A stretch of DNA of 64,000 nt, taken from Escherichia coli O157:H7 (GTDB taxonomy: Bacteria > Pseudomonadota > Gammaproteobacteria > Enterobacterales > Enterobacteriaceae). Position numbers: made by a program. How positions within the stretch are numbered: the first letter of the stretch is position 1; the number at the start of each line of letters is the position of its first letter. The stretch lies in assembly GCF_013167455.1 (NCBI RefSeq), contig NZ_CP038328.1; one strand, given 5' to 3'. Shown piece after piece: positions 12,001 to 15,000 of this stretch.

Positions 12001-15000
12001 CGCTGGTGTGCCGGTAGCGCGAATGCGTGCGGCATCGTTCACGGTTTGCTGGTCACCTTCAATAACCGCGCACGGAACGCTGTCTTTCAGGCGCATTAAG
12101 GTTTCCGTCAGCAGGGTGGTTTTACCGGAACCTGGGCTGGAAACCAGGTTGAGCACCAGTTGCTTGCAGGCAGCAAAGCGCGCGCGGTTGCGTTCAGCCA
12201 GACGGTTATTTTTGTCCAGCACGTCAATTTCGACTTCCAGCATCCGACGCTGGCTCATGCCCGGTGCGTGAGTGCCCGCTTCGCCATGACCGTAATGCAG
12301 GTCGCCTTCTTCAGTCTGGCTGGGGGTAAATTCAGGCGCTTTAATGCCGGTGATTTTCATCTTCGGGCGTGCCGCCGGGGCAAATGGCGCGCTACGAAAC
12401 GCGGAATGAGGGTTATGTTCATCACCCTCGATATACAGGTTGCCTTCACCGCAACCGCATGTTGTACACATCGCTCACTCCTGGTCTATTTCTATCCGCC
12501 GAATCTGTAAACCGTCGTCTGCCACAATCTGTAGCATGTCACCATGACACTGTGGACAGCGGCGGACGCGCTGGGTCAGTAGCGTCACATACTGTTGGCA
12601 TGTTTCACACCAGCATTCGGCCTCTTGTTCTTCGAGGTGCAGTTTACAACCTTCCGCCACGCTGCCGCGGCAAACCAGATCAAAACAAAAGGCAAGAGAG
12701 CTGGTTTCGACACAAGAAAATGCGCCAATTTTGAGCCAGACCCCAGTTACGCGTTTTGCGCCGTGTTTTGCGGCCTGCTGTTCGATCAATTCCAGTGCCC
12801 GTTGGCAGAGGGTTATTTCGTGCATATCGCCTCCCATTAACTATTGCCAGCTACAAGCAATAATTGTGCCAGTGTTGATTATCCCTGCAGTGAATAATGT
12901 CGATGATGTCGAAATGACACGTCGACACGGCGACGAAATTCACCAAAATCTTAAAAATCGCTTTAATAATAATAAATTAAAAGTTGGCACAAAAAATGCT
13001 TAAAGCTGGCATCTCTGTTAAACGGGTAACCTGACAATGACTATTTGGGAAATAAGCGAGAAAGCCGATTACATCGCACAGCGGCATCGTCGCCTACAGG
13101 ACCAGTGGCACATCTACTGCAATTCGCTGGTTCAGGGGATCACGTTATCGAAAGCGCGCCTGCATCACGCCATGAGCTGCGCGCCGGACAAAGAACTCTG
13201 TTTCGTCCTTTTTGAACATTTTCGTATTTACGTCACCCTGGCGGATGGCTTTAACAGCCACACCATCGAGTATTACGTCGAAACAAAAGATGGCGAAGAC
13301 AAACAGCGGATTGCGCAGGCGCAACTGAGCATTGACGGCATGATTGATGGCAAGGTCAACATCCGCGATCGCGAACAGGTTCTGGAACACTATCTCGAAA
13401 AAATCGCTGGCGTTTACGACAGCTTATACACCGCTATTGAAAACAATGTGCCGGTGAATTTAAGCCAACTGGTAAAGGGACAAAGCCCGGCAGCATGAGC
13501 TGAGGCTTTGCCCGTTTTGCAGGCGTTACGCCTGTTTGGGGATGGGCGTGTCGATGAGTGTCGAAAATGACATTTCATCGGCATGTTTTCGTCAAAAATG
13601 ACAATCACCTGAGGAATGCCTGGTGAATCGTTTTGTAATTGCTGACTCCACGCTCTGTATCGGTTGCCACACTTGTGAGGCCGCCTGTTCAGAGACGCAT
13701 CGCCAGCACGGCCTGCAATCAATGCCGCGCCTGAGAGTGATGCTAAATGAAAAAGAATCTGCGCCGCAGCTCTGTCACCACTGTGAAGATGCACCCTGCG
13801 CGGTGGTCTGCCCGGTTAACGCCATCACCCGCGTTGATGGGGCCGTGCAGTTGAATGAAAGCCTGTGCGTAAGCTGCAAGCTGTGCGGCATCGCCTGCCC
13901 GTTTGGCGCAATTGAATTTTCCGGCAGCCGTCCGCTGGATATTCCTGCAAATGCCAATACCCCGAAAGCGCCACCGGCACCGCCTGCTCCGGCGCGTATC
14001 AGTACGCTGCTTGACTGGGTGCCGGGTATTCGCGCGATCGCCGTCAAATGTGACCTTTGTAGCTTTGATGAACAAGGTCCGGCCTGCGTGCGGATGTGCC
14101 CGACTAAAGCCCTGCATCTGGTGGATAACACCGATATCGCCCGCGTCAGCAAACGTAAGCGTGAGCTGACCTTTAACACGGACTTTGGCGATCTCACCTT
14201 GTTTCAGCAGGCTCAAAGTGGAGAGGCTAAATGAGCGCAATTTCCCTGATCAATAGCGGCGTGGCGTGGTTTGTCGCCGCCGCTGTTCTGGCATTTCTCT
14301 TTTCTTTTCAAAAGGCGCTAAGCGGCTGGATAGCCGGAATTGGCGGCGCGGTTGGTAGTCTGTATACGGCAGCCGCGGGCTTCACTGTACTGACTGGCGC
14401 GGTTGGCGTGAGCGGTGCGCTGTCGCTGGTAAGCTACGATGTGCAAATCTCTCCGCTTAACGCGATTTGGCTGATTACGCTCGGTCTGTGCGGTCTGTTT
14501 GTCAGCCTCTACAACATTGACTGGCATCGCCACGCGCAGGTGAAGTGCAACGGCTTGCAGATCAATATGTTGATGGCTGCCGCCGTCTGCGCCGTCATTG
14601 CCAGCAACCTCGGCATGTTCGTGGTAATGGCCGAAGTCATGGCCTTGTGTGCGGTGTTCCTCACCAGCAACAGCAAAGAGGGCAAACTGTGGTTTGCGCT
14701 GGGGCGTCTTGGCACTCTGCTGCTGGCGATTGCTTGCTGGCTGCTGTGGCAGCGTTACGGCACGCTGGATCTGCGCCTGCTGGATATGCGTATGCAACAG
14801 CTGCCGCTCGGTTCCGATATCTGGCTGCTCAGTGTGATTGGCTTTGGCCTGCTGGCCGGGATTATTCCGCTGCACGGCTGGGTGCCGCAGGCACATGCGA
14901 ACGCCTCTGCGCCAGCTGCCGCGTTGTTTTCTACGGTAGTCATGAAAATTGGCCTGCTGGGCATTTTAACCCTGTCACTGCTGGGCGGTAATGCACCGCT

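What the first reader, a model, noticed from the sequence alone, without database searches (positions are those of the whole stretch)
12826..13036. Divergent sigma54 hyp/hyc control region with both promoters intact
Back-to-back TGGCAC-N5-TTGC elements (12856-12872 on the minus strand, 12985-13000 on the plus strand) flank a region with repeated TGTCG/CGACA-type motifs that are plausible FhlA upstream activating sequences. Together with an intact fhlA and a complete hyc/hyp/hydN/hypF set, the formate hydrogenlyase system appears fully functional.
Basis: partly seen in the sequence, partly recalled or inferred. Interest (0 to 1): 0.2.

Follow-up and report, generated by a model that had tools for sequence, protein, structure and literature searches.

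The report
Known E. coli hyc/hyp sigma-54 control region
This is the well-studied switch region between the hydrogen-producing (hyc) and hydrogenase-maturation (hyp) operons of E. coli, here in an O157:H7-type strain, with every key element identical to the laboratory strain K-12, so it is ordinary.

Summary
The window is E. coli of the O157:H7/O55:H7 type. The 211-bp hypA-hycA intergenic region (12826-13036) carries two divergent sigma-54 promoters:
- CTGGCACAATTATTGCT at 12872->12856 (-), for hyp.
- TTGGCACAAAAAATGCT at 12984-13000 (+), for hyc. Its -12 element is ATGC, not TTGC.

Both 17-mers are identical to sigma-54 ChIP-seq sites in K-12. They rank 1st and 3rd of all 17-mers in the 64 kb under an independent matrix. 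Their GG and GC dinucleotides are invariant in 82 of 82 distinct Enterobacteriaceae sequences.

The TGTCG/CGACA cluster (12896-12940) is conserved and identical to K-12.

All 8 differences from K-12 fall in the spacer between enhancer and hyc promoter. One (C->T at 12970) weakens a conserved IHF-like core and is lineage-specific.

The 17 FHL-related genes in the window (fhlA, hypA-F, hycA-I, hydN) are full length. "Fully functional" overreaches, because fdhF, rpoN, ihfAB and the selenocysteine genes are outside the window.

Verdict: already known, low interest.

The parts
12856..12872 (-). Sigma-54 promoter of hypABCDE-fhlA: CTGGCACAATTATTGCT. GG is at 12870/12869 and GC at 12858/12857. The predicted transcription start is about 12845, giving a 20-nt leader.
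   Evidence: Exact consensus match. Matrix score 21.2, rank 1 in the window, P = 6e-9 per position. Identical to K-12 ChIP-seq site OS28, which has the highest PSSM score of the intergenic sites in Table 1 (PMC4591121). GG, GC and TTGC are invariant in 82/82 Enterobacteriaceae sequences. The 32-mer around it is identical in 4879 of 5426 E. coli genomes.
12984..13000 (+). Sigma-54 promoter of hycABCDEFGHI: TTGGCACAAAAAATGCT. GG is at 12986-12987 and GC at 12998-12999. The predicted transcription start is about 13011, giving a 26-nt leader.
   Evidence: Matrix score 17.2, rank 3, P = 7e-7 per position. Identical to K-12 ChIP-seq site OS27. TGGCA and TGC are invariant in 82/82 sequences.
12896..12940 (.). 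Enhancer (UAS-1), the presumed FhlA-binding region: AATGTCGATGATGTCGAAATGACACGTCGACACGGCGACGAAATT. It contains TGTCG twice, CGACA once, the inverted repeat CGTCG-N6-CGACG, and two CGAAAT half-sites of the published FhlA consensus (12910 and 12934). It is centred about -93 from the hyc start and -73 from the hyp start.
   Evidence: The core 12896-12923 is conserved across 82 Enterobacteriaceae sequences. No difference from K-12. The 50-mer is identical in 5328 of 5426 E. coli genomes. The consensus is quoted in PMC4987338. FhlA binding upstream of hyc is stated in PMC11291172.
12942..12964 (.). Hypervariable spacer between the enhancer and the IHF-like core. It carries 6 of the 8 differences from K-12 (CACCAAAATC versus CATCTTTAGC, plus position 12960).
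   Evidence: The window-type 47-mer is found in only 382 of 5426 genomes (O157:H7, O55:H7, O145 and others).
12967..12979 (+). IHF-like core (consensus WATCAANNNNTTR): TAATAATAAATTA. It lies 19 bp before the GG of the hyc promoter. It is degraded in this lineage by C->T at 12970.
   Evidence: The family consensus at this aligned position is a perfect IHF core. 56 of 82 sequences have at most 1 mismatch, and the spacing is fixed in 73 of 82. K-12 has 1 mismatch and the window has 2. IHF is listed as an activator of hyc and hyp in PMC2636881. The footprint position itself comes from my memory and was not verified.
13549..13602 (+). Second enhancer-type element (UAS-2) in the hycA-hycB intergenic region: TGTCGATGAGTGTCGAAAATGACA ... 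TTTCGTCAAAAATGAC. It lies about 705-760 bp upstream of the hyp start.
   Evidence: Best non-self match to UAS-1 in the whole window (score 36 against a null maximum of 27). Conserved in 77 distinct Enterobacteriaceae sequences. Identical to K-12.
12475..12825 (-). hypA, the first gene of hypABCDE-fhlA. The operon runs 7056-12825 on the minus strand and fhlA is 7056-9134.
   Evidence: HypA is 100% identical to K-12. FhlA is 692 aa with three substitutions (D109A, V625A, L640Q) and has GAF, Sigma54_activat and HTH_8 domains.
13037..20899 (+). The hycABCDEFGHI operon. hycA (13037-13498) encodes the anti-activator.
   Evidence: All nine products are full length and 99.0-100% identical to K-12, with no internal stops.
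25278..28264 (+). The hydN-hypF unit with its sigma-54 site CTGGCATGATTTGTGAA (25278-25294). This belongs to the same regulon.
   Evidence: Identical to K-12 ChIP site OS26. HydN is 100% and HypF 97.9% identical to K-12, both full length.

Best explanation
This is the known bidirectional, enhancer-dependent control region of the E. coli formate regulon, here in an O157:H7/O55:H7-type chromosome.

Proposed mechanism:
1. RNA polymerase carrying sigma-54 sits in closed complexes on two divergent -24/-12 promoters whose predicted starts are 166 bp apart: hyp leftward from about 12845 and hyc rightward from about 13011.
2. FhlA, a GAF / AAA+ / HTH activator encoded at the end of the hyp operon, binds the conserved enhancer between the promoters (12896-12940). 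It probably also binds a second, near-identical element between hycA and hycB (13549-13602).
3. When formate is bound, FhlA uses ATP hydrolysis to open the promoter complexes. An A/T-rich, IHF-type bend site (12967-12979) helps loop the enhancer onto the hyc promoter.
4. hyc then yields hydrogenase 3 and the anti-activator HycA, a negative loop. hyp yields the maturation proteins and more FhlA, a positive loop.

Shown here: the identity and position of all the DNA elements, their identity with K-12, their conservation, and the intactness of the genes.

Taken from literature: sigma-54 occupancy, FhlA dependence and formate dependence.

Inferred or recalled from memory: which enhancer serves which promoter, and the exact IHF footprint.
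For: - The region is 100% identical to E. coli 2017C-4109 and 98.4% identical to K-12, and it is flanked by annotated hypA and hycA.
- Both 17-mers equal the K-12 sigma-54 ChIP-seq sites OS27 and OS28. The K-12 hycA-hypA spacer was also picked up by gSELEX, and the orthologous Salmonella promoters by ChIP-chip and microarray.
- A leave-out matrix ranks the two sites 1st and 3rd in the window, with chance expectations of 1e-6 and 1e-4 for this region.
- GG and GC are invariant in 82 of 82 distinct Enterobacteriaceae intergenic sequences. A conserved enhancer core and an IHF-type core sit at fixed spacing.
- All 8 differences from K-12 lie outside the promoters and the enhancer.
- A second enhancer copy is present and conserved.
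- FhlA has the expected domains and keeps E183 and E363 (PMC11291172).
- All hyc, hyp, hydN, hypF and fhlA genes are full length.
Against: - No experiment on this strain is available.
- The original FhlA and IHF footprint papers (Schlensog 1994, Hopper 1994, Leonhartsberger 2000, Lutz 1990) are not in the held library, so the site boundaries are inferred.
- The published 16-bp FhlA consensus matches only as two half-sites, and a scan with it is at chance level.
- An ungapped matrix built from orthologous enhancers does not find the fdhF or hydN enhancers.
- The IHF-like core has two mismatches in this lineage, a level that is common by chance.
Confidence: 0.93

Rival explanations
1. The control region is intact in kind but quantitatively altered in this lineage. 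The O157:H7/O55:H7-type spacer allele and the C->T change at the conserved C of the IHF-like core (12970) would weaken IHF-assisted looping. That would lower or re-balance hyc expression relative to hyp. This rival is compatible with the main explanation.
For: - C at 12970 is present in 69 of 82 Enterobacteriaceae sequences, in all other Escherichia sequences examined, and in three further E. coli strains.
- The window drops from 1 to 2 mismatches against WATCAANNNNTTR.
- The allele is confined to 382 of 5426 genomes.
Against: - A whole Citrobacter clade also lacks this C and has 2-3 mismatches, so the core is dispensable or replaceable in nature.
- The stretch remains very A/T-rich.
- From general knowledge, O157:H7 strains are typically gas producers; this was not tested here.
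- The IHF footprint position is not verified.
Confidence: 0.15
2. A third sigma-54 promoter lies inside hycA (GTGGCACATCTACTGCA, 13105-13121, +). It would drive hycB-I without hycA.
For: Matrix score 16.1, rank 4 in the window and above the median of the validated sites (15.8). GG-N10-GC spacing is correct. 62 of 80 species score at least 12 at this position.
Against: - The motif is made of codons W-H-I-Y-C.
- The -12 GC is lost through synonymous TGC->TGT in 19 of 80 species, whereas the true promoters keep it in 82 of 82.
- No separate ChIP-seq peak is reported in K-12, although the hycA and hypA peaks 139 bp apart were resolved.
Confidence: 0.05
3. The sigma-54-like strings and pentamer repeats are chance matches in an A/T-rich intergenic region, and transcription is driven by ordinary sigma-70 promoters.
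For: - The loose pattern with one mismatch is at chance level window-wide.
- Pentamer density is matched elsewhere in the window.
- Two weak sigma-70-like hits lie in the region.
Against: - Matrix P-values are 6e-9 and 7e-7 per position.
- The sequences are identical to ChIP-validated sites.
- GG/GC are conserved 82/82 against a variable background.
- The sigma-70-like hits are no more frequent than in shuffles (2 against 1.7).
Confidence: 0.01

Closest known systems
E. coli K-12 hycA-hypA divergent sigma-54 promoters (formate regulon; Lutz et al. 1990 as cited in PMC3844500; ChIP-seq sites OS27/OS28 in PMC4591121)
   Same: Same locus, same length (211 bp), identical -24/-12 17-mers, identical enhancer (12890-12942), identical hycA-hycB element, same gene order, and proteins 97.9-100% identical.
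   Different: There are 8 single-base differences, all in the spacer between 12889 and 12970. They include a 5-in-7 cluster at 12943-12949 and C->T at 12970 in the IHF-like core. The flanking rpoS-mutS region has O157-type gene content.
Salmonella Typhimurium hycA/hypA sigma-54 promoters (PMC3844500)
   Same: Orthologous divergent pair, bound by sigma-54 holoenzyme and sigma-54-dependent. Same GG-N10-GC geometry and the same enhancer core.
   Different: The -24 element is TGGCAT and the spacer bases differ. The Salmonella IHF-like core keeps the C.
zraP/zraS divergent sigma-54 promoter pair of E. coli (OS38/OS39 in PMC4591121)
   Same: Two back-to-back sigma-54 promoters about 150 bp apart. 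From general knowledge, they share an activator-binding region between them, and the activator gene lies in one of the two operons.
   Different: A different activator (ZraR, a two-component response regulator) and a different signal (zinc). There is no second distal enhancer copy that I know of.
fdhF and hydN-hypF FhlA-dependent promoters
   Same: Same regulon, with sigma-54 sites at similar distances from the start codon. The upstream regions are rich in GTC/GAC repeats and in TTTCGTCA or TGTCGATGACA motifs.
   Different: Single promoters, not divergent. The motif arrangement differs enough that an ungapped matrix from the hyc enhancer does not detect them.

Membership tests
Sigma-54 (RpoN) -24/-12 promoter | GG and GC dinucleotides separated by exactly 10 bases (TGGCAC-N5-TTGCW) | tested here: met
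   hyp: exact match. hyc: TGGCAC-N5-ATGC, one mismatch outside GG/GC.
Sigma-54 (RpoN) -24/-12 promoter | Score within the range of experimentally bound sites under a position weight matrix | tested here: met
   Scores are 21.2 and 17.2. The 38 training sites span 9.3-18.9 with a median of 15.8. The matrix excluded this window's own sites.
Sigma-54 (RpoN) -24/-12 promoter | Occupancy by sigma-54 holoenzyme | not testable with these tools
   Identical 17-mers are ChIP-seq peaks in K-12, with FAT scores of 201 and 91 (PMC4591121). This strain has not been assayed.
Sigma-54 (RpoN) -24/-12 promoter | Correct orientation and a short distance to the downstream gene | tested here: met
   The predicted starts give leaders of 20 nt (hypA) and 26 nt (hycA), equal to the distance column of PMC4591121 Table 1.
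Sigma-54 (RpoN) -24/-12 promoter | Conservation of the core dinucleotides in orthologous regions | tested here: met
   82 of 82 distinct Enterobacteriaceae sequences keep GG and GC at both promoters.
FhlA enhancer (UAS) of the formate regulon | Match to the published FhlA consensus CATTTCGTACGAAATG | tested here: inconclusive
   There are only two CGAAAT half-sites (12910 and 12934; 0.16 expected per 211 bp). The best 16-mer matches in the window lie elsewhere, and the counts equal chance. The consensus is quoted in PMC4987338.
FhlA enhancer (UAS) of the formate regulon | Position about 70-150 bp upstream of a sigma-54 promoter, and conserved | tested here: met
   Centred about -93 from the hyc start and -73 from the hyp start. 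The core 12896-12923 is conserved across genera. It is identical to K-12.
FhlA enhancer (UAS) of the formate regulon | Protection by purified FhlA | not testable with these tools
   The held literature states only that FhlA binds upstream of fdhF and hyc. The original footprint papers are not held.
IHF-assisted sigma-54 promoter | A WATCAANNNNTTR core between the enhancer and the promoter | tested here: inconclusive
   The family consensus is perfect, K-12 has 1 mismatch, and the window has 2 mismatches because of T at 12970.
Complete, functional formate hydrogenlyase system | Intact fhlA, hycA-I, hypA-E, hydN and hypF | tested here: met
   All are full length with no internal stops and are 97.9-100% identical to K-12.
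Complete, functional formate hydrogenlyase system | Presence of fdhF, rpoN, ihfAB, and the selenocysteine and molybdenum-cofactor genes | not testable with these tools
   These genes lie outside the 64-kb window. In K-12, fdhF is about 1.45 Mb from this locus.

The most novel reading that the evidence does not exclude
The O157:H7/O55:H7 lineage carries a derived allele of the hyc control region. The spacer is replaced at 12943-12949, and the otherwise conserved C of the IHF-type core is lost (12970 C->T). If this measurably changes IHF-assisted activation of the hyc promoter, it would alter formate hydrogenlyase output or the hyc:hyp balance in this pathogen lineage.
Probability: 0.12. Interest if true: 0.3.

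Novelty: already known. Interest (0 to 1): 0.08.

Why it matters
It matters little as a discovery. This is a textbook regulatory region, and the analysis shows it is intact in an O157:H7-type chromosome.

It has three modest uses:
- It confirms the annotation of the formate regulon in this window.
- It shows that the complete control unit extends beyond the intergenic region to a second conserved enhancer copy between hycA and hycB.
- It flags a lineage-specific variant in the IHF-type site that could be tested for an effect on hydrogen production in enterohaemorrhagic E. coli.

Tried and rejected
1. Scanning with the published FhlA 16-mer consensus. The number of matches at 10 or more and 11 or more of 16 positions equals chance, and the true enhancer is not among the top hits. 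The consensus is useful only at half-site level.

2. Ungapped matrices built from the orthologous enhancer cores (21 and 30 columns). They find only the site itself, not the hycA-hycB, hydN or fdhF enhancers. One-base spacing differences explain the miss for hycA-hycB, which a gapped local alignment then found.

3. A post-hoc pattern, YGTCR-N3-4-TGACR. It gives 12 hits against 2.1 expected and hits both enhancers and fdhF. It was derived after looking at the data, so I do not rely on it.

4. Retrieval of the original footprint and mapping papers, and of an IHF ChIP supplement. Nothing was found or held.

5. Sigma-70 promoter and terminator scan of 12400-13700. Hits are at the shuffle level.

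6. RNA folding of the hycA leader. It folds no better than shuffles (z = 0.79).

7. My first extraction of orthologous regions used hypA in the wrong reading frame. It was redone correctly.
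Full report
**What is there**

The stretch 12826-13036 is the 211-bp region between two divergently transcribed genes. hypA runs 12825->12475 on the minus strand and hycA runs 13037-13498 on the plus strand. A 501-bp query around it matches 5425 of 5426 complete E. coli genomes. It is 100% identical to strain 2017C-4109 and 98.4% identical to K-12, and the genes under the match are annotated hypA and hycA.

The gene order in the window is mutS, ygbA, fhlA-hypEDCBA | hycABCDEFGHI, ascBF, ascG, hydN-hypF, norWV. This equals the K-12 order. The spacer allele described below places the window in the O157:H7/O55:H7 group of strains.

**Checking the observation**

- On the minus strand, TGGCACAATTATTGC occupies 12871->12857. 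It is the only exact TGGCAC-N5-TTGC match in the 64 kb.
- On the plus strand, TGGCACAAAAAATGC occupies 12985-12999. Its -12 element is ATGC rather than TTGC, but GG-N10-GC is kept.

I built a weight matrix from 38 intergenic sigma-54 ChIP-seq sites of K-12 (PMC4591121, Table 1) and left out the four sites that lie in this window.

| Rank in window | Site | Coordinates | Score |
|---|---|---|---|
| 1 | hyp promoter | 12872->12856 (-) | 21.2 |
| 2 | norV promoter | 31025->31009 (-) | 18.1 |
| 3 | hyc promoter | 12984-13000 (+) | 17.2 |
| 4 | inside hycA | 13105-13121 (+) | 16.1 |

The training sites score between 9.3 and 18.9, with a median of 15.8. Exact score distributions give per-position probabilities of 6e-9 (hyp) and 7e-7 (hyc). 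That means 1e-6 and 1e-4 sites are expected in this region on the right strand.

The pentamers are present: TGTCG at 12898 and 12907, and CGACA at 12923. This is 3 in 56 bp against 0.13 expected. Two other stretches of the window are as dense or denser, so this count alone is weak evidence.

**Comparison with K-12 and with experiments**

The two 17-mers, CTGGCACAATTATTGCT and TTGGCACAAAAAATGCT, are letter for letter the K-12 sigma-54 ChIP-seq sites OS28 (hypA) and OS27 (hycA). OS28 has the highest PSSM score of the intergenic sites in Table 1 and one of its two strongest peaks.

The K-12 hycA-hypA spacer was also recovered by genomic SELEX with sigma-54 holoenzyme. The orthologous Salmonella promoters are bound by the holoenzyme and are sigma-54-dependent.

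The window differs from K-12 at 8 positions in the 501 bases compared: 12889, 12943, 12945, 12946, 12947, 12949, 12960 and 12970. All eight are intergenic. None falls in either promoter or in the TGTCG/CGACA cluster.

**Phylogenetic footprint**

Using HycA as a probe, I fetched 80 loci from Enterobacteriaceae species genomes. I extracted the hypA-hycA intergenic regions and aligned 82 distinct sequences, including the window and K-12.

- The GG and GC of both promoters are invariant in 82 of 82 sequences. So are TTGC of hyp and TGGCA/TGC of hyc.
- Between the promoters, the block 12896-12923 (AATGTCGATGATGTCGAAATGACACGTCG) is conserved across genera.
- The stretch 12942-12964 is hypervariable even within Escherichia.
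- Within E. coli, the 50-mer covering the enhancer is identical in 5328 of 5426 genomes.

**The enhancer and FhlA**

The held literature states that FhlA binds upstream of fdhF and hyc (PMC11291172). It quotes the FhlA consensus CATTTCGTACGAAATG from Leonhartsberger et al. 2000 (PMC4987338).

In the window this consensus appears only as two half-sites, CGAAAT at 12910 and at 12934 (0.16 expected per 211 bp). A scan with the full 16-mer performs at chance. The FhlA assignment therefore rests on four things: position, conservation, identity with K-12, and a second copy of the element.

That second copy came from a gapped local alignment of the enhancer core against the whole window. The best non-self match is TGTCGATGAGTGTCGAAAATGACA at 13549-13572, in the hycA-hycB intergenic region (score 36; the null maximum was 27). 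This element, plus TTTCGTCAAAAATGAC at 13587-13602, is conserved in 77 distinct sequences and is identical to K-12.

From memory of Schlensog et al. 1994 and Hopper et al. 1994, which I could not retrieve, this is the second FhlA-binding region and it was assigned to hyp activation. I mark that as unverified.

The fdhF and hydN upstream regions share GTC/GAC-rich motifs such as TTTCGTCA and TGTCGATGACA. They are not found by an ungapped matrix.

**The IHF-type site and the lineage-specific variant**

At 12967-12979 the family consensus is a perfect IHF core (WATCAANNNNTTR), at a fixed 19 bp from the GG of the hyc promoter in 73 of 82 sequences. 56 of 82 sequences have at most one mismatch. IHF is listed as an activator of hyc and hyp (PMC2636881).

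K-12 has one mismatch. The window has two, because the conserved C (69 of 82 sequences) is T at 12970. All other Escherichia sequences and three further E. coli strains have C. The window-type 47-mer occurs in only 382 of 5426 genomes, among them O157:H7, O55:H7 and O145 strains.

A Citrobacter clade also lacks the C, so the change need not be harmful. This is the only point where "intact" deserves a question mark.

**The intragenic sigma-54-like site**

GTGGCACATCTACTGCA (13105-13121) scores as well as real promoters. However, it is spelled by the codons for W-H-I-Y-C. Its GC is lost by synonymous TGC->TGT in 19 of 80 species. No separate ChIP-seq peak is reported there in K-12. It is most likely a by-product of the coding sequence.

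**Gene integrity**

All of fhlA, hypA-E, hycA-I, hydN and hypF are full length, without internal stops, and 97.9-100% identical to K-12.

FhlA has GAF, Sigma54_activat, AAA-lid and HTH_8 domains. It differs from K-12 at D109A, V625A and L640Q, outside the AAA+ core and the HTH match. It keeps E183 and E363, the residues implicated in formate binding.

The hydN sigma-54 site equals K-12 site OS26.

fdhF, rpoN, ihfAB and the selenocysteine and molybdenum-cofactor genes are not in the window. "Fully functional" therefore cannot be concluded from this sequence alone.

**Verdict**

It describes an already known system with every functional element identical to K-12. Interest is low.

- the second enhancer copy outside its coordinates;
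- the correction that the hyc -12 element is ATGC;
- a lineage-specific variant in the IHF-type core, which is a testable but probably minor regulatory polymorphism.

Noticed in passing
window 13549-13602: There is a second, near-identical copy of the enhancer core (TGTCGATGAGTGTCGAAAATGACA ... TTTCGTCAAAAATGAC) in the hycA-hycB intergenic region. It is conserved in 77 distinct Enterobacteriaceae sequences and identical to K-12. It is probably the distal FhlA site.
   Followed up: yes
window 13105-13121 (+): A high-scoring sigma-54-like 17-mer, GTGGCACATCTACTGCA, lies inside hycA (score 16.1, rank 4 in the window). Its -12 GC is lost by synonymous change in 19 of 80 species, and K-12 shows no ChIP peak there. 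It is likely a coding by-product.
   Followed up: yes
window 12942-12979: The spacer is hypervariable, and C->T at 12970 removes the conserved C of an IHF-type core. The allele is restricted to 382 of 5426 complete E. coli genomes (O157:H7, O55:H7, O145 and others).
   Followed up: partly
window 12700-13200: Every difference between this window and K-12 or three other E. coli strains lies in the 211-bp intergenic region. None lies in the 290 bp of flanking hypA/hycA coding sequence.
   Followed up: partly
window 31009-31025 (-): The norV sigma-54 promoter CTGGCACGCAATCTGCA is identical to K-12 ChIP site OS25. It has the second-best matrix score in the window (18.1).
   Followed up: partly
window 25187-25294: The hydN sigma-54 site CTGGCATGATTTGTGAA (25278-25294) lacks the canonical GC at -12, yet it equals K-12 ChIP site OS26. 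Upstream at 25187-25224 are TGTCA/TGTCG repeats (TGTCATCACATGTCATCGTCACTAGTGTCGATGACA).
   Followed up: partly
window 58510-58526 (+): GTGGCATGAATATTGAT equals the K-12 sigma-54 ChIP site OA04, an intergenic antisense site whose downstream gene is listed as ygaC.
   Followed up: no
window 748-2768: The ORFs match the subunit B and C genes of a non-oxidative hydroxyarylic acid decarboxylase, as annotated in strain 2017C-4109. In that strain these genes lie in the rpoS-mutS interval, where K-12 instead has ygbI-ygbN.
   Followed up: partly
window 13016-13029: An inverted repeat GTTA-N6-TAAC lies in the predicted hycA leader. The surrounding sequence TCTCTGTTAAACGGGTAACC is conserved across genera. 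The RNA fold is no better than shuffles (z = 0.79).
   Followed up: partly
L085 (E. coli ESY002), aligned to window 12989: A natural A->G change within the hyc -24 element turns TGGCAC into TGGCGC. GG and GC are untouched.
   Followed up: no
hit H30, E. coli FDAARGOS_1288, break near window 12830: In this genome the match starts only at query base 131 and the record has two places. This suggests an insertion or rearrangement between the hypA start and its promoter.
   Followed up: no
window 12537-12549: The near-palindrome TGTCACCATGACA lies inside hypA and resembles the GTC/GAC motifs of the enhancers.
   Followed up: no
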